From: Escherichia coli | GTDB taxonomy: Bacteria > Pseudomonadota > Gammaproteobacteria > Enterobacterales > Enterobacteriaceae | Length of the DNA: 64,000 bases | Direction: 5' to 3' (one strand) | NCBI RefSeq assembly: GCF_030013205.1 | Contig: NZ_CP122648.1 | Part shown: positions 1,504 through 58,086 of the stretch, one piece after another | Position numbering within the stretch: position 1 is the first letter of the stretch | How the letters are laid out: every line of letters begins with the position of its first letter | Notes under the pieces: model-generated | Seen by the model: the letters and a program-made list of their open reading frames with translations, nothing else | Database searches by the model: none | Told to the model about the DNA's origin: nothing | Made by a program: the position numbers and the translations under genes

Positions 1504-3156
1504 ATGTCCAAACCATTTATCTGGCAAGAACCGTTTCTACAAAATAAAGACGGTACAGAATATACATTAATTAGCGATCAACATATTACAGTAACGGAAT
1601 TAGACGGCGAAGAAGTAATAAAAATCGCTCCTGAAGCATTAACGCTGCTTGCCCGGCAGGCATTTTATGAAGCCTCTTTTTTCTTACGTTCCGCTCATTT
1701 GCAACAGGTCGCCAGCATTCTTAACGATCCGCAGGCCAGTAGTAATGATAAATACGTTGCGTTGCAGTTATTACGTAATGCTGAAGTCTCAGCAAAAGGG
1801 GTATTACCCAACTGTCAGGATACCGGCACCGCAACTATTGTTGCCAGTAAAGGGCAACAGATATGGACTGGAGGTAACGACGCCAAAGCCTTAAGCAAAG
1901 GCATTTACACCACTTTTCAGGAAAATAATCTGCGCTTTTCACAAAATGCGCCGCTGGATATGTATACCGAAGTCAATACGCAAACCAATCTCCCGGCGCA
2001 GATTGATATCAGCGCTGTCGCTGGTGATGAGTACCATTTTCTCTGTGTTAATAAAGGGGGCGGCTCTGCCAATAAAGCCGCGCTTTATCAGGAAACCAAA
2101 TCCTTATTGCAACCAGAAAAACTGACCGCATTTTTAATCGAAAAAATGAAATCGCTGGGCACCGCTGCCTGCCCGCCTTACCACATCGCCTTTGTCGTCG
2201 GAGGGCTTTCAGCCGATCAAACCTTAAAAGTTGCCAAGCTGGCTTCTACGAAATATTACGACAATTTGCCCACCAGCGGAAACGAGCAGGGACAAGCATT
2301 CCGTGATATTGAGCTGGAAAAAGTGTTGCTCGAGGCCAGTCAGCAATTTGGTATTGGTGCGCAATTTGGGGGTAAATATTTCGCTCATGATATTCGCGTC
2401 ATTCGTCTGCCGCGTCACGGTGGCTCTTGCCCGATAGCTATGGCGCTCTCCTGTTCTGCCGATCGCAATATCAAAGCAAAAATTAACAAGCACGGTATCT
2501 GGCTGGAAAAACTCGAACACAATCCGGGGCAATATATTCCAGCCTCACTGCGGGAAGAAAATCACGCGCAACATGTACAACTGGATCTAAACCGTCCGTT
2601 GCGTGACGTGATGCAGGATCTCGCCAGATTACCGGTAGGCACCCGCGTGTCGTTAAGTGGTCCCATCGTAGTGGCACGCGATATCGCCCACGCCAAAATA
2701 AAAGCGCGGCTGGATAACGCCGAACCGATGCCGGATTACCTGAAGCATCATATTGTCTATTACGCTGGCCCGGCGAAAACACCGGAGAACATGGCCTGCG
2801 GTTCACTGGGTCCAACCACGGGCGGTCGAATGGACGGTTATGTCGATACCTTCCAGGCGGCTGGCGGCAGTCTGGTGATGTTATCGAAAGGTAACCGCAG
2901 CCAGCAGGTCACCGATGCCTGTCACAAACATGGTGGCTTCAATCTGGGTAGTATTGGCGGTGCAGCTGCGTTACTGGCGCAAGAATATGTCAAAAGTCTG
3001 CGTTGCCTGGAATACCCGGAGCTGGGTATGGAAGCGGTGTGGATGATGGAAGTGGAAAATCTGCCCGCATTCATCCTGGTAGATGATAAAGGCAATAATT
3101 TCTTTAGTCAGTTTGAGCAGCAACACCGCTGCGCCAGTTGCCCTGCGGGACATTAA
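1504..3156 (+). CDS. class I (Fe-S) fumarate hydratase family paralog; candidate mesaconase/fumarase
   Basis: 550 aa, colinear with remembered FumA/FumB along the whole length ([36 protein letters not shown] motifs); divergent enough to be a third paralog. Confidence 0.85.
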
Positions 3157-3165
3157 GGAAAATGA

Positions 3166-3768
3166 ATGGAAGCGCGAATTTCAACTGAACGGCATGTGCA
3201 GCGCCAGCAGAAATTGAAGGAACAGGTCGATACGCGCGTCGCGGCGGCGATAGAGAAAAAAGGGATTTTGATTGTTTTCACCGGCAATGGCAAAGGGAAA
3301 TCCACTGCCGCGTTTGGTACTGTGACGCGCGCGGTGGGTCATGGCAAAACGGTGGGGGTTGCGCAGTACATCAAGGGGCAATGGGACAACGGCGAATACA
3401 ACCTTCTCCAGCCGCTGGGGGTTGAGTTTCATATTATGGGAACCGGTTTTACCTGGGAGACACAGAACCGGCAAGCGGATATCGACGCGGCGAAAGAGGT
3501 CTGGTCGGAAAGCAAACGGATGCTGGCTGACAAGCGTTACGACTTAGTGGTGCTTGATGAGCTGACCTATATGCTGGCTTACCATTATCTGGACACCGAA
3601 GAAGTGATCGCTTCTCTGCAAAACCGCCCGGCACAACAAAGTGTCATTGTCACCGGACGCGGTTGCCACAGTCAGATATTAAAAATGGCGGATACGGTCA
3701 GCGAAATCCGCCCCGTCAAACATGCTTTTGATAACGGCATTCAGGCGCAGCCGGGTATCGACTGGTAA
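3166..3768 (+). CDS. cob(I)alamin adenosyltransferase, CobA/BtuR family
   Basis: 200 aa; P-loop FTGNGKGKSTAAFG and overall similarity to remembered BtuR; 9 bp after the fumarase-like gene. Confidence 0.8.
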   Translation: MEARISTERHVQRQQKLKEQVDTRVAAAIEKKGILIVFTGNGKGKSTAAFGTVTRAVGHGKTVGVAQYIKGQWDNGEYNLLQPLGVEFHIMGTGFTWETQNRQADIDAAKEVWSESKRMLADKRYDLVVLDELTYMLAYHYLDTEEVIASLQNRPAQQSVIVTGRGCHSQILKMADTVSEIRPVKHAFDNGIQAQPGIDW

Positions 3769-3801
3769 TAACTGCGCCTGGCATCCCGCCAGGCGCAGGT
3801 T

Positions 3802-4707
3802 TTACATCTCCTGCGGTACGACCGATTTCGCCAGCAACCATTCACGAAATTGCTGCAAGTGCGGCGAGTCAGACTTCTCTTCCTGCCACGTCATAATAAA
3901 ACGATTACCGGTACGAATAGGCACATCACAGGGAATCACCATATCGCCACTATCCAAATCATGTTGAATAGCGAACCGTGGTAACAGCGCCACGCCGAGA
4001 TTAGAGCGCACGGCGGCAATCAGCATTGAAAGCAAATCGAAACGTGGTCCGTTATTGACCAGCGGACTGCTAACGCCAGATAAAGCAAACCACTCTTCCC
4101 AGCCAGTAATACGGGTGCTTTGATGCAGAAGTGGTAACTCAGTAAGCAGTTCTGCCACTGACAGTTTTTGATCGGACATTGCAAGCAAACTGCCGCTGCA
4201 TACCGGCAAAATCTCCTCATCAAAGAGATATTCTACTTCCGCCCAGGGCGCGCAAAAATTTTCGCGCATAATGACAGCATCGTACTCCCGATTAAGAAAA
4301 TCGCCGTTATTAGCTAAAGAATGAATATTAACAATAATATCGGGATGTAACTTTGTGAATTCATGTAAATTTGGGATTAACCAGTGGGTACTAAAAGTAG
4401 GATTAACGGCAAGTTCAATAACCTGAACCGTAGGCTGCCAGGTCATAATGGTATTGGTATCGCGTTCCAGCTTATTTAATGTTTCTTTTACTATCCCCAG
4501 GTAATACTTCCCTGCATCATTAAGAAAAATACGTTTTTTAGAGTGTGAAAATAACGGAGTATGTAAAAATTCCTCCAGCGCACTCACTTGTCTGAATACA
4601 GCACTTTGGGTTAACGCTAACTCCTCTGCCGCTCTGGTATAACTTTCATGACGTGCGACGACCTCAAAAGTCACCAGCAGCTCCGTTTTAGGTATTTTTC
4701 CTCGCAT
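3802..4707 (-). CDS. LysR-type transcriptional regulator
   Basis: 301 aa; N-terminal HTH ...YTRAAEELALTQSAVFRQV...; convergent with the upstream 3-gene cluster. Confidence 0.85.
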   Translation of the reverse strand: MRGKIPKTELLVTFEVVARHESYTRAAEELALTQSAVFRQVSALEEFLHTPLFSHSKKRIFLNDAGKYYLGIVKETLNKLERDTNTIMTWQPTVQVIELAVNPTFSTHWLIPNLHEFTKLHPDIIVNIHSLANNGDFLNREYDAVIMRENFCAPWAEVEYLFDEEILPVCSGSLLAMSDQKLSVAELLTELPLLHQSTRITGWEEWFALSGVSSPLVNNGPRFDLLSMLIAAVRSNLGVALLPRFAIQHDLDSGDMVIPCDVPIRTGNRFIMTWQEEKSDSPHLQQFREWLLAKSVVPQEM

Positions 4708-46614: not shown

Positions 46615-49291
46615 CGAACCCTTACGTCCCGACCCCGATCGTCTGCTGGAACAAACTGCCGCGCCGCATCGGGGGAAGCTGAAAGTTTTCTTCGGTGCCT
46701 GTGCGGGCGTCGGAAAGACCTGGGCGATGCTGGCAGAAGCCCAGCGACTGCGGGCGCAAGGGCTGGATATTGTGGTTGGCGTGGTTGAAACCCACGGGCG
46801 GAAAGATACCGCCGCAATACTGGAAGGGCTGGCTGTTCTGCCGCCCAAACGCCAGGCGTACCGTGGGCGGCATATCAGCGAATTTGATCTCGATGCCGCC
46901 CTCGCCCGCCGTCCGGCGCTGATCTTAATGGACGAACTGGCGCACAGTAATGCGCCAGGTTCTCGTCATCCTAAACGCTGGCAGGACATCGAAGAGCTGC
47001 TGGAAGCTGGCATTGATGTTTTCACAACCGTCAACGTTCAGCATCTGGAAAGTCTGAATGATGTGGTCAGCGGCGTCACCGGAATTCAGGTACGGGAAAC
47101 CGTGCCCGATCCTTTTTTCGATGCCGCCGACGACGTGGTGCTGGTGGACTTGCCCCCGGACGATCTGCGTCAACGGCTGAAAGAAGGTAAAGTCTATATT
47201 GCCGGGCAGGCGGAACGCGCCATTGAACATTTTTTTCGTAAAGGTAATCTGATCGCCCTGCGCGAACTGGCACTGCGCCGTACTGCCGATCGCGTTGATG
47301 AGCAAATGCGCGCCTGGCGGGGGCATCCTGGCGAAGAGAAAGTCTGGCACACGCGCGACGCGATCCTTTTATGCATCGGGCATAACACCGGCAGCGAAAA
47401 ACTGGTCCGCGCGGCGGCGCGGCTGGCGTCACGGCTGGGAAGCGTCTGGCACGCGGTGTATGTTGAAACCCCTGCCCTGCACCGCTTACCGGAGAAAAAA
47501 CGTCGGGCAATTCTCAGCGCCTTACGTCTGGCGCAGGAGCTGGGCGCAGAGACGGCAACACTTTCTGATCCAGCGGAAGAGAAAGCGGTAGTGCGTTATG
47601 CCCGTGAACATAATCTCGGCAAGATTATTCTCGGTCGCCCAGCCTCGCGCCGCTGGTGGCGTCGGGAAACGTTTGCTGACCGACTGGCGCGCATCGCCCC
47701 CGATCTCGATCAGGTGCTGGTCGCGCTTGATGAACCACCCGTCCGCACGATTAACAACGCGCCGGATAGCCGCTCTTTTAAAGACAAGTGGCGGGTACAG
47801 ATTCAGGGATGCGTGGTTGCCGCCGCGTTATGCGCCGTTATCACCTTAATTGCCATGCAGTGGCTGATGGCGTTTGATGCCGCCAACCTGGTGATGCTGT
47901 ATCTGCTTGGCGTGGTGGTGGTGGCGCTGTTTTATGGACGCTGGCCTTCGGTGGTTGCTACCGTCATTAATGTGGTGAGTTTCGATCTCTTTTTTATCGC
48001 CCCACGCGGCACGCTCGCCGTCTCTGATGTGCAATATCTGCTGACCTTCGCGGTGATGTTAACCGTCGGGCTGGTGATCGGGAACCTTACTGCGGGCGTG
48101 CGTTATCAGGCGCGGGTAGCCCGTTACCGCGAGCAACGCACACGGCACTTATATGAAATGTCGAAAGCACTGGCGGTGGGCCGCAGTCCGCAGGACATCG
48201 CCGCCACCAGCGAACAATTTATTGCCTCCACGTTTCATGCCCGCAGTCAGGTGCTGTTACCCGATGACAACGGTAAATTGCAGCCGTTAACACATCCGCA
48301 AGGAATGACGCCGTGGGACGATGCCATCGCGCAGTGGAGTTTTGATAAAGGCCTGCCTGCGGGCGCGGGCACCGACACGTTACCCGGTGTACCGTACCAG
48401 ATTTTGCCGCTAAAAAGCGGCGAGAAAACCTACGGGCTGGTGGTGGTGGAACCGGGGAATCTGCGCCAGTTGATGATCCCGGAACAGCAACGCCTGCTGG
48501 AGACGTTTACGCTGTTAGTCGCCAATGCCCTTGAGCGGCTGACACTGACCGCCAGCGAAGAACAGGCGCGGATGGCAAGCGAACGAGAACAGATCCGCAA
48601 CGCCCTGCTGGCGGCGCTTTCGCATGATTTACGCACGCCGCTTACGGTGCTGTTCGGTCAGGCAGAAATCTTAACGCTCGATCTGGCGAGCGAAGGATCG
48701 CCCCACGCCCGCCAGGCCAGCGAGATTCGTCAGCATGTGCTGAACACGACCCGACTGGTGAATAATCTACTGGATATGGCGCGAATTCAGTCCGGCGGCT
48801 TTAATTTGAAGAAAGAGTGGTTAACGCTGGAAGAAGTGGTCGGCAGCGCGCTGCAAATGCTGGAACCGGGTTTATCGTCGCCCATCAATCTTTCTCTGCC
48901 AGAACCGCTGACCTTAATCCACGTTGACGGGCCACTCTTTGAACGGGTGCTGATTAATCTGCTGGAGAACGCGGTGAAATACGCGGGTGCGCAGGCCGAA
49001 ATTGGTATCGATGCCCACGTTGAGGGCGAAAATCTACAACTGGATGTCTGGGATAATGGCCCCGGTCTTCCGCCAGGCCAGGAGCAGACGATATTTGATA
49101 AGTTTGCTCGCGGGAATAAAGAGTCGGCGGTACCGGGTGTAGGGCTTGGGCTGGCAATTTGTCGGGCGATTGTGGATGTACACGGCGGCACCATTACCGC
49201 GTTCAACCGACCGGAAGGTGGTGCCTGTTTTCGTGTTACACTTCCCCAGCAAACTGCCCCTGAACTTGAAGAATTTCATGAGGATATGTGA
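46607..49291 (+). CDS. kdpD: sensor histidine kinase KdpD
   Basis: ORF track 46574..49291; start [16 protein letters not shown] (894 aa); H-box SHDLRTPL. Confidence 0.96.
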
Positions 49292-49965
49292 CAAACGTTC
49301 TGATTGTTGAAGATGAACAGGCTATTCGTCGCTTTCTGCGCACGGCGCTGGAGGGCGATGGGATGCGCGTCTTTGAGGCCGAAACGCTGCAACGCGGCTT
49401 GCTGGAAGCGGCTACCCGTAAGCCAGATTTGATTATTCTCGATCTCGGCCTGCCCGATGGTGATGGGATTGAGTTTATCCGCGACCTGCGCCAGTGGAGC
49501 GCAGTGCCGGTGATTGTGCTTTCCGCACGTAGCGAAGAGAGCGACAAAATCGCCGCGCTGGATGCCGGAGCGGATGATTATCTGAGTAAGCCGTTTGGCA
49601 TTGGCGAATTGCAGGCCCGTCTGCGCGTCGCATTACGCCGCCACTCTGCCACCACCACGCCCGATCCGCTGGTGAAATTTTCCAATGTTACCGTCGATTT
49701 AGCGGCTCGAGTGATCCATCGCGGTGAGGAAGAGGTGCATCTCACCCCGATTGAGTTCCGCCTGCTGGCGGTGTTGCTTAATAATGCGGGAAAAGTGCTC
49801 ACCCAGCGCCAGCTCCTTAACCAGGTGTGGGGGCCAAACGCGGTCGAACACAGTCATTATTTGCGTATTTATATGGGGCATCTGCGACAAAAACTGGAGC
49901 AAGATCCCGCCCGCCCCCGCCACTTCATTACTGAAACCGGTATTGGGTATCGGTTTATGCTTTAG
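49288..49965 (+). CDS. kdpE: response regulator KdpE
   Basis: 225 aa; receiver domain plus OmpR-type winged helix. Confidence 0.96.
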   Translation: MTNVLIVEDEQAIRRFLRTALEGDGMRVFEAETLQRGLLEAATRKPDLIILDLGLPDGDGIEFIRDLRQWSAVPVIVLSARSEESDKIAALDAGADDYLSKPFGIGELQARLRVALRRHSATTTPDPLVKFSNVTVDLAARVIHRGEEEVHLTPIEFRLLAVLLNNAGKVLTQRQLLNQVWGPNAVEHSHYLRIYMGHLRQKLEQDPARPRHFITETGIGYRFML

Positions 49966-49975
49966 GCGGTTAAAT

Positions 49976-50073
49976 GCTGGATCCGGCATGAACGCCTTAT
50001 CCGGCCTACAAAATCTTGTAAATTCAATATATTGCACCATCCTCGCAGGCCTGATAAGCGTAGCGCATCAGGC
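49976..50073. repeat. REP pair (BIME-like) between kdpE and pgm
   Basis: tgctggatccggcatgaacgccttatccggcctaca and inverted gcaggcctgataagcgtagcgcatcaggc match remembered REP consensus. Confidence 0.75.
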
Positions 50074-50085
50074 AGTCATAAGTAA

Positions 50086-50116
50086 AAAAGGGCGATCTTC
50101 CGACCGCCCTTTTTCT
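50086..50116. terminator. intrinsic terminator shared by convergent kdpE and pgm
   Basis: aaaaaagggcg-atcttccgac-cgccctttttc. Confidence 0.7.
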
Positions 50117-50128
50117 TATTTAATGTGT

Positions 50129-51769
50129 TTACGCGTTTTTCAGAACTTCGCTAACAATCTCGACCGCTTCTTTCTCGATCTGCTTGCGATGCTCTTCACC
50201 GAGGAAGCTTTCGCAATAAATCTTGTACGCGTCTTCCGTGCCTGACGGACGCGCGGCGAACCAGCCGTTGTCAGTCATCACTTTCAGACCGCCGATAGAA
50301 GCACCGTTGCCAGGCGCAGCGGTCAGGCGCGCGGTGATCGGGTCACCTGCCAGGGTGCTGGCGCTCACCATTTCCGGAGACAGTTTAGACAGCGCCGCTT
50401 TTTGTGCGGAAGTCGCGGCTGCCTGCAAACGGTTGTAGCTCGGCGCACCAAAGCGTTTTGCCAGTTCGTTGTAGTGTTCCTGCGGGTTCTTACCGGTGAC
50501 CGCGGTGATTTCTGCCGCCAGCAGACACATAATGATACCGTCTTTATCGGTTGACCACGGCGTGCCGTCGAAACGCAGGAAGGAAGCCCCTGCGCTCTCT
50601 TCGCCGCCAAAGCCGAAGCTGCCGTCGAACAGACCATCAACAAACCATTTGAAACCTACCGGGACTTCTACCAGCTTACGGCCCAAGTCATTGACCACAC
50701 GGTCGATCATCGCAGATGAAACCAGCGTTTTACCGACAGCAACATCTTTGCCCCACTGCGGACGGTGCTGGAACAGGTAGTTGATCGCCACCGCCAGGTA
50801 GTGGTTCGGATTCATCAAACCTGCCGGAGTGACGATACCGTGACGGTCATAATCCGGGTCGTTAGCAAACGCCAGATCGAACTTATCACGCAGTGCCAGC
50901 AGACCCGCCATCGCACACTCGGAGGAGCAGTCCATACGGATCGCACCGTCTTTATCGAGGTGCATAAAGCGGAAGGTTTGATCGACCTGATCGTTAACGA
51001 TGGTCAGGTTGAGATTGTAATACTCGCCAATGCGCTTCCAGTATTCGATACCGGAACCACCCAGCGGATCAACGCCCAGCGTCAGGCCCGCTTTCTGAAT
51101 CGCCGCCATATCAACGATATCGGCCAGACCTTCCACAAACGGCTGCACCAGATCCTGCTCTTTCACATGACCGGATGCCATCGCTTCGTCGAGGGAGATA
51201 CGCTTCACGCCTTTCAGGCCATCAGCCATCAGTGCGTTGGCCCTGTCTTCCACCACTTTAGTGACGTTGGTATCAGCCGGGCCACCATTTGGCGGATTGT
51301 ACTTGATACCACCATCTTCCGGCGGGTTATGAGACGGTGTAATCACGATACCGTCTGCCAGCGGGCCACCTTTTTTATTGTGAACCAGGATGGCATTGGA
51401 AACGGCAGGCGTCGGGGTGAAGCCATTGTTTTCCTGCACAATGACATCAACGCCATTCGCTGCCAGCACTTCCAGTACGGAAATGAACGCAGGCTCGGAC
51501 AGGGCGTGAGTATCTTTACCCACATAGCAAGGGCCAGTGATGCCGTTTTTCGCACGTTCTTCAGCAATTGCCTGAGCGATCGCCAGAATGTGCGGCTCGT
51601 TAAAGCTGTGGCGCGCTGCACTGCCACGGTGACCGGAAGTACCGAATTTCACCGCGTGCTCCGCATTCCCTGCTTCTGGTTTCAGTACATAATATTGCGC
51701 CGTCAGTTGGGCGACGTTAATCAAATCACTCTGTTGTGCAGGTTGGCCTGCACGATTGTGGATTGCCAT
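50129..51769 (-). CDS. pgm: phosphoglucomutase
   Basis: ORF track 50129..51820; start trimmed to [16 protein letters not shown] (546 aa). Confidence 0.96.
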
Positions 51770-56993: not shown

Positions 56994-57359
56994 GGGTTAA
57001 TCCTCTTTGACGTATAAATTGCTGCACCAAAGGTGAACAGCGAAAAAAATAAAAATTAAAAAAGTAGCGTTGAGAAAAGTCTCGCTGACTACAGGAACAG
57101 ACTATTTTTCGCGACGCGAATTATCAATCTCTTTCTGTAACCAGAATGTAAGAACATGAGCAACCGCACATATTTTGATGATTTTTGTTACAAGGCTTAA
57201 GTTTGCAGTTGAAAGGCTTGCAGAAGAATAAAAACGTGAAATTCCAGCAAGATGAAAGCGGTTACATTTTATTTAATTATGTTTTGTGATTTTAAATTTG
57301 TTTTATGGATAAATTGCGAAGCGGAATTAATTCGCGAAGAAAAGCAGAATAAATATCCT

Positions 57360-58060
57360 CCGGCATAGCCGGAGGTTTTTCAAATGCGCCTATAAGGCTC
57401 TCTTACCAGCCGCGCCCTAACAGGCGCACACGATCTGACATTTGCATCCAACTTCGTTACTTACGGCCCGTAAACGGGCTGCCCGGATAGGGAATCGATA
57501 ACTGCTCTCCCATTTTATCCTCTTCAAGCTGGTGCTTTATGTAATCCTGTATCTTCGCCGTGTTCTTACCCACCGTATCGACGTAGTACCCTCTGCACCA
57601 GAACTCTCTGTTCCTGTATTTGAATTTCAAATCACCAAACTGCTCGTAAAGCATCAGACTGCTTTTCCCTTTCAGATATCCCATAAAGCCGGATACGCTC
57701 ATTTTGGGCGGGATCTCCACAAGCATATGGATATGATCTGCACAGCATTCAGCTTCAAGAATCCGTACGCTTTTCCACTCACACAGCTTTCTCAAAATAC
57801 TGCCTATTGCTCTACGCTTCTCTCTGTAGAACACTTGTCTTCGGTATTTTGGCGCAAAAACTATGTGATATTTACAGTTCCATCGGGTGTGCGCTAAGCT
57901 CTTTTCGTTCCCCATTGGGACCCCCTTTTGATTTCTTGTTTGACACTTGCAGTTGCCAGACCGCAAGGTGTTTTAACAAATCAAAAGGGGTTTTAATAAC
58001 TGGCTCAAAGCTGAAAGCTTTCCGGAACCCCCAGCCTAGCTGGGGGTTTTCTGTGCACAA
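57360..58060 (-). mobile_element. IS200 (IS200/IS605 family)
   Basis: Y1 transposase ORF; perfect hairpin cccccagc-cta-gctggggg at 58028-58046 near the tnpA-proximal end; span estimated from canonical about 0.7-kb length. Confidence 0.8.
57457..57915 (-). CDS. tnpA: IS200 transposase TnpA (HUH/Y1)
   Basis: ORF track 57457..57966; start MGNEKSLAHTRWNCKYHIVFAPKYRR (152 aa); HIHMLVEIPP HuH motif. Confidence 0.93.
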   Translation of the reverse strand: MGNEKSLAHTRWNCKYHIVFAPKYRRQVFYREKRRAIGSILRKLCEWKSVRILEAECCADHIHMLVEIPPKMSVSGFMGYLKGKSSLMLYEQFGDLKFKYRNREFWCRGYYVDTVGKNTAKIQDYIKHQLEEDKMGEQLSIPYPGSPFTGRK

Positions 58061-58086
58061 AAAAACGCCGCAGAGCGCGGCGTTTT
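58061..58086 (-). terminator. intrinsic terminator after glnS
   Basis: A5-cgccgc-agagc-gcggcg-T4. Confidence 0.75.

What the first reader, a model, noticed from the sequence alone, without database searches (positions are those of the whole stretch)
49966..50128. pgm abuts kdpE across a 163-bp REP-containing spacer; no speF-potE segment
From memory, K-12 has ybfP, two pseudogenes, potE, speF and ybfK between pgm and kdpE. Here the two convergent genes are separated only by two REP-like repeats and one shared terminator hairpin. Either this lineage never acquired the inducible ornithine decarboxylase / putrescine antiporter segment, or it was lost at a REP-flanked junction.
Basis: partly seen in the sequence, partly recalled or inferred. 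Interest (0 to 1): 0.4.

Follow-up and report, generated by a model that had tools for sequence, protein, structure and literature searches.

The report
speF-potE loss at kdpE-pgm junction
This E. coli strain lacks the acid-inducible ornithine decarboxylase/putrescine antiporter genes that normally sit between kdpE and pgm; this is an ordinary, recurrent gene-loss variant shared by about 2% of complete E. coli genomes, and its last step was a deletion between two copies of a small repeat (REP).

Summary
kdpE (49288-49965, +) and pgm (50129-51769, -) converge on a 163-bp spacer. It holds 9 bp, one BIME (REP, 35-nt linker, inverted REP) and one bidirectional terminator hairpin. The window matches E. 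coli O139:H1 W13-16 at 100% over the 1.5-kb junction query.

"Never acquired" is rejected. speF-potE lies between kdpE and pgm in E. albertii, Salmonella, many other Enterobacteriaceae and about 93% of 5,426 complete E. coli genomes.

The locus has several architectures in E. coli:
- I: speF-potE, then a terminator.
- II: the K-12 arrangement.
- III: kdpE, BIME, ybfP, BIME, pgm (246 genomes).
- IV: the window's arrangement (105 genomes).
- V: deletion by recombination between kdpE and ybfI (3 genomes).

III and IV share a distinctive left junction in which the kdpE stop codon is TAG rather than TGA, followed about 9 bp later by a REP. IV is best explained as III minus a ~650-bp ybfP segment, removed between two direct REPs. 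That deletion happened at least twice.

The earlier loss of speF-potE is not REP-flanked in any speF-carrying genome I examined, and its mechanism is unresolved.

This is an ordinary structural polymorphism of low interest.

The parts
49288..49965 (+). kdpE, the response regulator and last gene of kdpFABCDE. It is intact at 225 aa. Its stop codon is TAG, whereas every speF-carrying allele examined has TGA.
49966..49974 (.). 9-bp junction filler GCGGTTAAA between the kdpE stop and the REP. It is shared with type IV genomes O145:H28, O169:H41, 1504D004 and FDAARGOS_944, and with the ybfP-containing type IIIb allele of XJ5.2 (GCGGTTGAAT).
49975..50009 (+). y-type REP ending in CTAC. This is the surviving copy of the two direct REPs that flank ybfP in type III alleles. 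Compared with the canonical TGCCGGATGCGGCG it carries three lineage substitutions (TGCTGGATCCGGCA).
50010..50044 (+). Long L linker of a BIME-1-type element. It contains ATTCAATATATTG (50022-50034), one mismatch from the IHF consensus WATCAANNNNTTR. It gives a sub-threshold Rfam ES036/CssrF match (34.5 bits; gathering score 37.6).
   Evidence: PMC3333891 for the BIME-1 definition
50045..50074 (+). Inverted z1-type REP. Its 5' tetranucleotide is GCAG here, where K-12 and O169:H41 have the conserved GTAG.
50084..50117 (.). Bidirectional intrinsic terminator: A6, GGGCGATC, TTCC, GACCGCCC, T5CTT. The same hairpin sits between potE and pgm in type I genomes (B2, O157:H7). Here it serves pgm and, on the opposite strand, the kdp operon.
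50129..51769 (-). pgm (phosphoglucomutase), 546 aa and intact. It is the last gene of seqA-pgm.

Best explanation
The 163-bp spacer is what remains after a stepwise, derived loss of everything that lies between kdpE and pgm in most E. coli.

Step 1 is inferred and its mechanism is unknown. In an ancestor carrying ybfP, the whole stretch between the convergent genes kdpE and ybfP was replaced by a short-linker BIME. This removed speFL-speF-potE and ybfG. The left breakpoint fell inside the kdpE stop codon (TGA became TAG). The right breakpoint fell within about 20 bp of the ybfP stop. The product is the type III allele: kdpE, BIME, ybfP, BIME, terminator, pgm.

Step 2 is supported by intermediates and a parallel case. 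In type III, two y-type REPs lie in direct orientation about 650 bp apart. One is next to kdpE and the other is the outer REP of the pgm-proximal BIME. Recombination between them deleted ybfP and left one REP. The product is type IV: kdpE, 9 bp, BIME-1, terminator, pgm.

The junction now sits on several different flanking haplotypes, so it has been moved by homologous recombination since it formed. The deletion therefore need not have occurred in the O139:H1 lineage itself.

Functionally, the strain has lost the acid- and ornithine-inducible ornithine decarboxylase and the putrescine/ornithine antiporter. kdpE has also lost its own terminator. The retained hairpin next to pgm, preceded by the REP stem-loops, now has to end both convergent transcripts.
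For: Ancestral presence of speF-potE:
- The order pgm, potE, speF, kdpE is found in E. albertii, two Salmonella subspecies and about 30 other species representatives.
- 5,038 of 5,426 E. coli genomes carry speF-potE at 80% coverage or more.

Shared derived junction:
- Every speF-carrying kdpE examined, and also the ybfI fragment, ends in TGA followed by A.
- Every type III and IV allele ends in TAG followed by G, then about 9 nt, then a REP.

Intermediates:
- Type IIIa (118UI, 300033) and type IIIb (XJ5.2) carry ybfP between two BIMEs.
- XJ5.2 has the window's junction (GCGGTTGAAT compared with GCGGTTAAA).

Independent parallel:
- 7CC and 88COLEC are type IV but carry the IIIa junction.
- They have the kdpE-side REP marker CCGACC, followed by the pgm-side linker AAAATAGCGC. 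This is exactly the predicted REP-by-REP recombinant.

Flanks:
- The window's kdpD-kdpE flank differs from type IIIa strain 118UI at 8 of 1,163 sites. It differs from other type IV genomes at 42-53 sites.

Counts:
- Type IV is in 105 genomes and type III in 246.
- 353 genomes have kdpE and pgm within 2.1 kb of each other.
- 295 genomes have no speF-potE match, and 81 more have only a weak 60-80% match.

Terminator:
- It folds strongly on both strands and is the same hairpin that follows potE in type I genomes.
Against: - The mechanism of step 1 is not shown. No speF-carrying genome I examined has a REP next to kdpE, so a BIME had to appear at the join.
- I saw no intermediate with speF-potE and the TAG junction.
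- The window has a b-type junction on IIIa-like flanks, so at least one short recombination patch or parallel change is needed.
- For the b family, the crossover must lie at the extreme 5' edge of the REP if the parent looked like XJ5.2, whose kdpE-side REP is rather diverged.
- Absence of speF-potE elsewhere in this particular genome is inferred from population counts. It was not checked directly.
- Terminator and IHF functions are predictions only.
Confidence: 0.78

Rival explanations
1. Ancestral absence. This lineage never had speF-potE, and the direct kdpE-pgm adjacency is the primitive state, as in Citrobacter youngae, Leclercia, Phytobacter or Kosakonia.
For: About 24 of the Enterobacteriaceae species representatives have pgm directly next to kdpE, with one short terminator spacer. 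A divergent Escherichia genome (L011) also has the type IV arrangement.
Against: - E. albertii, the B2 and O157:H7 lineages of E. coli, and Salmonella all have speF-potE here.
- The window's flanks are ordinary E. coli alleles, 96-99% identical to speF-carrying strains.
- The spacer carries the same BIME and terminator block that lies downstream of ybfP or potE in speF-carrying genomes.
- The TAG stop is a derived state shared only with type III.
- Type IV arose at least twice from ybfP-containing alleles.
Confidence: 0.04
2. A single-step deletion from a K-12-like (type II) or L012-like (type I') ancestor, running from the kdpE stop codon directly to the outer REP of the pgm-proximal BIME. 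Under this reading type III is unrelated.
For: The right end of the missing K-12 DNA coincides with the edge of the REP. Homology to K-12 resumes at window position 49975.
Against: This would require the same unusual left junction (TAG, G, then about 9 nt) to arise independently in type III and type IV. It ignores the XJ5.2 allele, which has the window's junction plus ybfP. It also ignores the demonstrably recombinant 7CC and 88COLEC alleles.
Confidence: 0.1
3. The REP-to-REP step was not RecA-type or slippage recombination. Instead it was a site-specific cleavage-and-joining reaction by the REP-associated transposase TnpA-REP (RAYT) at the CC|TAC sites of the two direct REPs.
For: In 7CC and 88COLEC the crossover is confined to the last 6 nt of the REP (CCTACA). 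That stretch contains the iREP-II cleavage site described for TnpA-REP (PMC3333891).
Against: A crossover in 6 of 36 identical nucleotides is expected by chance about 1 time in 6. 7CC and 88COLEC may represent one event. In the window's b family the crossover appears to lie at the opposite (5') edge of the REP. The z1 REP here has GCAG instead of the GTAG that TnpA-REP needs.
Confidence: 0.1

Closest known systems
The BIME-1-type element and terminator downstream of pgm in E. coli K-12 (the orthologous copy)
   Same: It has the same y REP, the same 35-nt L linker (AAATTCAATATATTGCACCATCCTC), the same z1 REP and the same terminator hairpin, at the same distance from the pgm stop.
   Different: In K-12 it is preceded by ybfP and 5.7 kb of further DNA, whereas here it abuts kdpE. 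The window lacks an 11-bp stretch (ATTCTGTGTTT), has three substitutions in the y REP, and has GCAG in place of GTAG.
REP/BIME-associated chromosomal rearrangements. These include REPs at the join-points of tandem duplications in Salmonella (Shyamala, Schneider and Ames 1990; recalled from memory, not checked here) and the BIME variability and recombination attributed to TnpA-REP (PMC3333891).
   Same: Short dispersed palindromic repeats in direct orientation act as the substrate for a deletion. A truncated REP is also fused directly to the kdpE fragment ybfI in K-12.
   Different: Here the outcome is a natural, fixed deletion allele with surviving parental alleles in the population, not a laboratory-selected duplication. 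The enzymology was not tested.
Type V deletion in the same locus (CUWW10, GF4-3, KL53)
   Same: This is also a natural loss of speFL-speF-potE between kdpE and pgm, by recombination between direct repeats.
   Different: The repeats are the kdpE 3' end and its 142-bp pseudogene copy ybfI (about 90% identical), not REPs. ybfG and ybfP are retained, and the TGA stop is kept.
Loss of the lysine decarboxylase locus cadA in Shigella and enteroinvasive E. coli ('black hole' deletions; recalled from memory)
   Same: It is a lineage-specific loss of an acid-inducible amino-acid decarboxylase/antiporter system in pathogenic E. coli.
   Different: For cadA an anti-virulence rationale is established. For speF-potE there is no evidence here of selection. 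speF is reported among the most frequently pseudogenised metabolic genes in E. coli (PMC13322260), which fits relaxed selection.

Membership tests
BIME-1 (REP y, long L linker, REP z1) | Two REPs in inverted orientation, each able to form a stem-loop | tested here: met
   The sequence, the fold showing two separate hairpins at 49976-50005 and 50049-50073, and motif scans.
BIME-1 (REP y, long L linker, REP z1) | A single copy with a long, conserved L linker that frequently carries an IHF site (definition in PMC3333891) | tested here: met
   The 35-nt linker is nearly identical to the K-12 orthologue and 86% identical to the K-12 chiP-glnS BIME. ATTCAATATATTG is one mismatch from WATCAANNNNTTR. 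IHF binding itself is not testable here.
BIME-1 (REP y, long L linker, REP z1) | Conserved GTAG/CTAC tetranucleotide at the foot of each REP | tested here: inconclusive
   CTAC is present on the y REP (50006-50009). The z1 REP starts with GCAG instead of GTAG in the window, O145:H28 and 118UI, whereas K-12 and O169:H41 have GTAG.
BIME-1 (REP y, long L linker, REP z1) | Dispersed multi-copy family in the genome | tested here: met
   A 1.5-kb query containing the element hits a median of 15 places per E. coli genome. A second K-12 copy was found. Only one copy lies in this 64-kb window.
Bidirectional intrinsic (Rho-independent) terminator | A GC-rich hairpin followed by a U-tract on both transcribed strands | tested here: met
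   -17.3 kcal/mol on the + strand (z = -5.3) and -22.8 kcal/mol on the - strand (z = -6.1), with an A6 run upstream and T5CTT downstream. The simple scanner missed it because of one mismatch in the stem.
Bidirectional intrinsic (Rho-independent) terminator | Transcripts actually end there | not testable with these tools
   This needs Term-seq or 3' RACE.
Deletion by recombination between direct REPs | A parental allele exists with two same-orientation REPs flanking exactly the missing DNA | tested here: met
   Type IIIa (L005, L006) and type IIIb (L095) have direct y REPs about 650 bp apart around ybfP.
Deletion by recombination between direct REPs | The product carries one REP whose left context comes from one copy and whose right context comes from the other | tested here: met
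   7CC and 88COLEC have the kdpE-side junction and the CCGACC marker, followed by the pgm-side linker. The window has the b-type kdpE-side junction followed by the pgm-side REP and linker.
Deletion by recombination between direct REPs | speF-potE itself was removed by REP-by-REP recombination | tested here: not met
   There is no REP downstream of kdpE in K-12, STLEFF_47, NU14, O157:H7, E. albertii or L012. The left breakpoint is in the kdpE stop codon.
speFL-speF-potE operon | Coding sequence for SpeF or PotE is present | tested here: not met
   tblastn found no hit in the window. Genome-wide absence is inferred from counts only: 376 genomes have no match or only a weak one, compared with about 354 type III, IV and V genomes.

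The most novel reading that the evidence does not exclude
The kdpE-pgm interval may be a long-lived, multi-allelic rearrangement hot spot organised by REP/BIME elements. At least four separate events at this one locus have a REP at a breakpoint:
- the truncated REP fused to the kdpE fragment ybfI;
- the BIME that replaced speF-potE and ybfG;
- two independent REP-to-REP deletions of ybfP.

Under this reading, loss of the acid-inducible ornithine decarboxylase/antiporter is positively selected in particular pathotypes (O139:H1 edema-disease strains, O145:H28 EHEC, O169:H41 ETEC, and lineages carrying type III). It would then be a counterpart of cadA loss in Shigella.
Probability: 0.12. Interest if true: 0.45.

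Novelty: new member of a known kind. Interest (0 to 1): 0.2.

Why it matters
The practical consequence is small. Strains with this allele cannot make SpeF or PotE, so they should lack ornithine-dependent acid protection and inducible putrescine export, and may read differently in ornithine decarboxylase tests. The constitutive SpeC route is not in this locus and is presumably unaffected, though I did not check it.

For genome biology, the locus is a clean natural example of REP-to-REP deletion. The parental and product alleles both survive in the population, and the event has recurred independently. The locus also shows that K-12 is not the ancestral reference here: K-12 carries an insertion (ybfI, ybfG, ybfP) that B2, O157:H7 and E. 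albertii lack. None of this changes current understanding of REPs, terminators or polyamine metabolism.

Tried and rejected
- **Rfam scan of the spacer.** It gave only sub-threshold matches (ES036 at 34.5 bits, below the 37.6 gathering score; naRNA4, STnc430, MicX). These reflect REP/BIME similarity. No sRNA gene is claimed.
- **Promoter and terminator scanner.** It found no promoter and missed the real hairpin because of one mismatch in the stem. The two hits it reported lie inside kdpE and are ignored.
- **Microhomology at the step-1 breakpoints.** I tried TGCT in kdpE against the sequence upstream of the BIME. The predicted join does not match the observed sequence, so I dropped it.
- **ybfI as an import from an L012-like lineage.** A few shared sites suggested this. 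Overall identity is 88-90% to every Escherichia kdpE, so no donor can be named.
- **Homology in the 20 bp 3' of ybfP between types II and III.** It is weak, so I place the right breakpoint only 'within about 20 bp of the ybfP stop'.
- **Direct check that W13-16 lacks speF-potE elsewhere.** No tool searches a single genome, so only population counts are available.
- **Literature.** I found no paper describing this polymorphism. One pangenome paper lists speF among the most often pseudogenised genes.

Full report
**What is in the window**

kdpE (49288-49965, + strand) and pgm (50129-51769, - strand) converge on a spacer of exactly 163 bp. The spacer contains, in order:
- 9 bp (GCGGTTAAA);
- a y-type REP ending in CTAC (49975-50009);
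- a 35-nt linker (50010-50044);
- an inverted z1-type REP (50045-50074);
- 9 bp;
- a hairpin A6-GGGCGATC-TTCC-GACCGCCC-T5CTT (50084-50117);
- 11 bp before the pgm stop.

The REP and linker motifs have 0.00-0.02 chance matches in shuffles of the window. The hairpin folds at -17.3 kcal/mol on the + strand (z = -5.3) and at -22.8 kcal/mol on the - strand (z = -6.1), with a U-tract on each strand. The arrangement of a y REP, a long conserved linker and a z1 REP is the BIME-1 architecture described in PMC3333891. The linker holds ATTCAATATATTG, one mismatch from the IHF consensus. That consensus is from my own knowledge, and binding was not tested. Rfam gives only sub-threshold matches to REP-derived families. 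KdpE and Pgm are intact, and no SpeF, PotE, YbfG or YbfP coding sequence exists anywhere in the window.

**Source and K-12 comparison**

The window matches E. coli O139:H1 strain W13-16 (wild boar) at 100% over the 1.5-kb junction query. O139:H1 ST1 edema-disease strains are phylogroup D (PMC11052496). In K-12 (BW25113) the order is kdpE, speFL, speF, potE, ybfI pseudogene, DUF2625 (ybfG) pseudogene, ybfP lipoprotein, pgm, with 5,857 bp between the two stops. Window-to-K-12 homology stops at 49963, inside the kdpE stop codon, and resumes at 49975, the first base of the REP. K-12 has the same BIME and terminator next to pgm.

**Lost, not never acquired**

A scan of species-representative genomes with Pgm returned 80 loci. 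The order pgm, potE, speF, kdpE is found in E. albertii, two Salmonella enterica subspecies, several Citrobacter, Enterobacter, Kluyvera, Lelliottia, Atlantibacter, Cedecea and others, about 33 species in all. In about 24 species pgm lies directly next to kdpE. Both states occur within Citrobacter, Leclercia and Phytobacter. In every short spacer a single hairpin terminator separates pgm from its neighbour, whichever gene that is.

Within E. coli, 5,038 of 5,426 complete genomes carry speF-potE at 80% coverage or more. A further 295 have no match and 81 have only a 60-80% match, which I take to be chance seeds in the paralogue speC. The presence of speF-potE in E. albertii, B2 (NU14) and O157:H7, together with the window's ordinary E. 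coli flanks (96-99% identity), makes absence here a derived state.

**Architectures at this locus**

| Type | Arrangement | Where seen |
|---|---|---|
| I | kdpE, speFL-speF-potE, 56 bp with one terminator, pgm; no REP | NU14, O157:H7, E. albertii |
| I' | potE, terminator T1, short unique sequence, BIME, terminator T2, pgm | divergent genome L012 |
| II | type I' plus a truncated REP fused to a 142-bp copy of the kdpE 3' end (ybfI), ybfG and ybfP, inserted before the BIME | K-12; roughly 1,800 genomes, estimated from the extra places |
| III | kdpE-TAG, about 9 bp, short-linker BIME, about 20 bp, ybfP, BIME-1, terminator, pgm | 246 genomes at 80% coverage or more; the main variant IIIa (118UI, 300033) plus a diverged variant IIIb (XJ5.2; 11 genomes in the 80-90% identity class) |
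| IV | the window's arrangement | 105 genomes, including O145:H28, O169:H41 and pig ETEC/EDEC strains; also divergent genome L011 |
| V | kdpE, intact DUF2625 gene, ybfP, pgm | 3 genomes |

In CUWW10 (type V) kdpE is identical to K-12 up to the last 17 nt, and the sequence then continues as ybfI's downstream flank. This makes it a kdpE-by-ybfI homologous deletion of speF-potE. The sum 246 + 105 matches the 353 genomes in which kdpE and pgm lie within one joined place.

**How type IV arose**

Every speF-carrying kdpE examined, and ybfI too, ends in TGA followed by A. Every type III and IV allele ends in TAG followed by G, then about 9 nt, then a y REP. The short filler forms a graded series:
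- GGGCTGAAT (88COLEC);
- GGCCTGAAT (7CC);
- GGTCTGAAT (118UI);
- GCGGTTGAAT (XJ5.2);
- GCGGTTAAA (window, O145:H28, O169:H41, 1504D004, FDAARGOS_944);
- GGGAATAAAT (L011).

This argues for one founding junction that has since diverged.

In type III the kdpE-side REP and the outer REP of the pgm-side BIME are direct repeats (34 of 36 nt identical in 118UI) about 650 bp apart, flanking ybfP. 7CC and 88COLEC are type IV alleles. They carry the IIIa filler and the kdpE-side REP marker (CCGACC), followed immediately by the pgm-side linker of IIIa (AAAATAGCGC). That is exactly the product expected from REP-by-REP recombination.

The window's filler matches XJ5.2, which still has ybfP. O145:H28's kdpE flank resembles XJ5.2's. 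ybfP-containing and ybfP-lacking alleles therefore exist in both junction families. The parsimonious reading is that ybfP was deleted between REPs at least twice. The opposite direction would need two identical insertions.

**What remains unexplained**

Step 1 replaced everything between kdpE and ybfP with a short-linker BIME, and I cannot reconstruct it. No speF-carrying genome I examined has a REP beside kdpE. Homology between types II and III resumes only around the ybfP stop codon. I found no intermediate.

The window is also a mosaic. Its kdpD-kdpE flank differs from IIIa strain 118UI at 8 of 1,163 sites but from other b-family genomes at 42-53 sites. Yet its filler and two REP substitutions (TGCTGGATCC) are shared with O145:H28 and FDAARGOS_944. 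The junction has therefore moved between backgrounds by recombination, or the flanks have been overwritten. The deletion need not have happened in the O139:H1 lineage.

Whether step 2 used RecA, replication slippage or the REP-associated transposase cannot be decided. The 7CC and 88COLEC crossover falls in the 6 nt that include the CC|TAC cleavage site reported for TnpA-REP (PMC3333891). That location is expected by chance about one time in six.

**Function (inferred)**

The strain lacks the inducible ornithine decarboxylase and the putrescine/ornithine antiporter. In K-12 kdpE has its own terminator just downstream, and that is gone here. kdp transcripts must therefore pass two REP stem-loops and end at the reverse face of the pgm terminator. 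This is the same hairpin that potE and pgm share in type I genomes. A pangenome study lists speF among the most frequently pseudogenised metabolic genes of E. coli (PMC13322260). That fits relaxed selection rather than anything unusual.

**Verdict**

This is an ordinary presence/absence polymorphism. Its final step is a textbook-style deletion between dispersed repeats, here documented with surviving parental alleles and an independent recurrence. Interest is low (0.2). It is a new member of a known kind.

Noticed in passing
window 57348-58067 (chiP-glnS intergenic region): An IS200C copy of about 720 bp sits where K-12 has a BIME (L001 17428-17527). The closest genome, CFSAN018748, has 31 places matching this query, so IS200C is high-copy in this lineage. 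IS200C is also inserted in the pgm-proximal BIME of STLEFF_47 (L009 9220-9678).
   Followed up: partly
L001 8487-8642 (K-12 ybfI): The K-12 pseudogene ybfI is a 142-bp copy of the kdpE 3' end, 88-90% identical to every Escherichia kdpE tested. It is fused directly to a truncated REP and preceded by a second copy of the potE/pgm terminator. K-12's arrangement is therefore a composite, not the ancestral state. No donor lineage could be identified.
   Followed up: partly
L012 1854-2083; L010 9125-9189; L007 8016-8071: Two terminator variants exist: T1 (loop GAAT; seen in E. albertii, in L012 and after K-12 potE) and T2 (loop TTCC; next to pgm in E. coli). L012 has both, flanking the BIME. The single terminator of E. 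coli type I has T1's left flank and T2's core. This would fit a T1-by-T2 deletion of the BIME from an L012-like ancestor.
   Followed up: no
L093 (E. coli SC418, NZ_LR778147.1) 2536-3951: kdpE is followed by the type III junction and REP, then an IS200/IS605 transposase gene, then ybgA-phrB instead of pgm. This is a larger rearrangement with one end at the same REP.
   Followed up: no
L013, L015, L077 (Pseudocitrobacter, 'Escherichia sp. ESNIH1'): A SpeF-like decarboxylase gene (about 81% identity) lies between pgm and kdpE without any potE. This is another variant of the locus.
   Followed up: no
L032, L035-L037 (Klebsiella oxytoca group): About 10 kb of unrelated DNA separates pgm from kdpE. 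Together with the roughly 24 species that lack speF-potE and the 33 that have it, this marks the pgm-kdpE interval as variable across the whole family.
   Followed up: no
window 50045-50048: The z1 REP begins with GCAG instead of the conserved GTAG that TnpA-REP requires for recognition (PMC3333891). The same change is present in O145:H28 and 118UI but not in K-12 or O169:H41.
   Followed up: no
window 50132-50700 (pgm 3' half): The 3' half of pgm is more divergent among E. coli (96-98% identity) than its 5' half (97-99%) or seqA (99% or more). Its SNP patterns are mosaic, which suggests frequent recombination breakpoints next to the structural polymorphism.
   Followed up: partly
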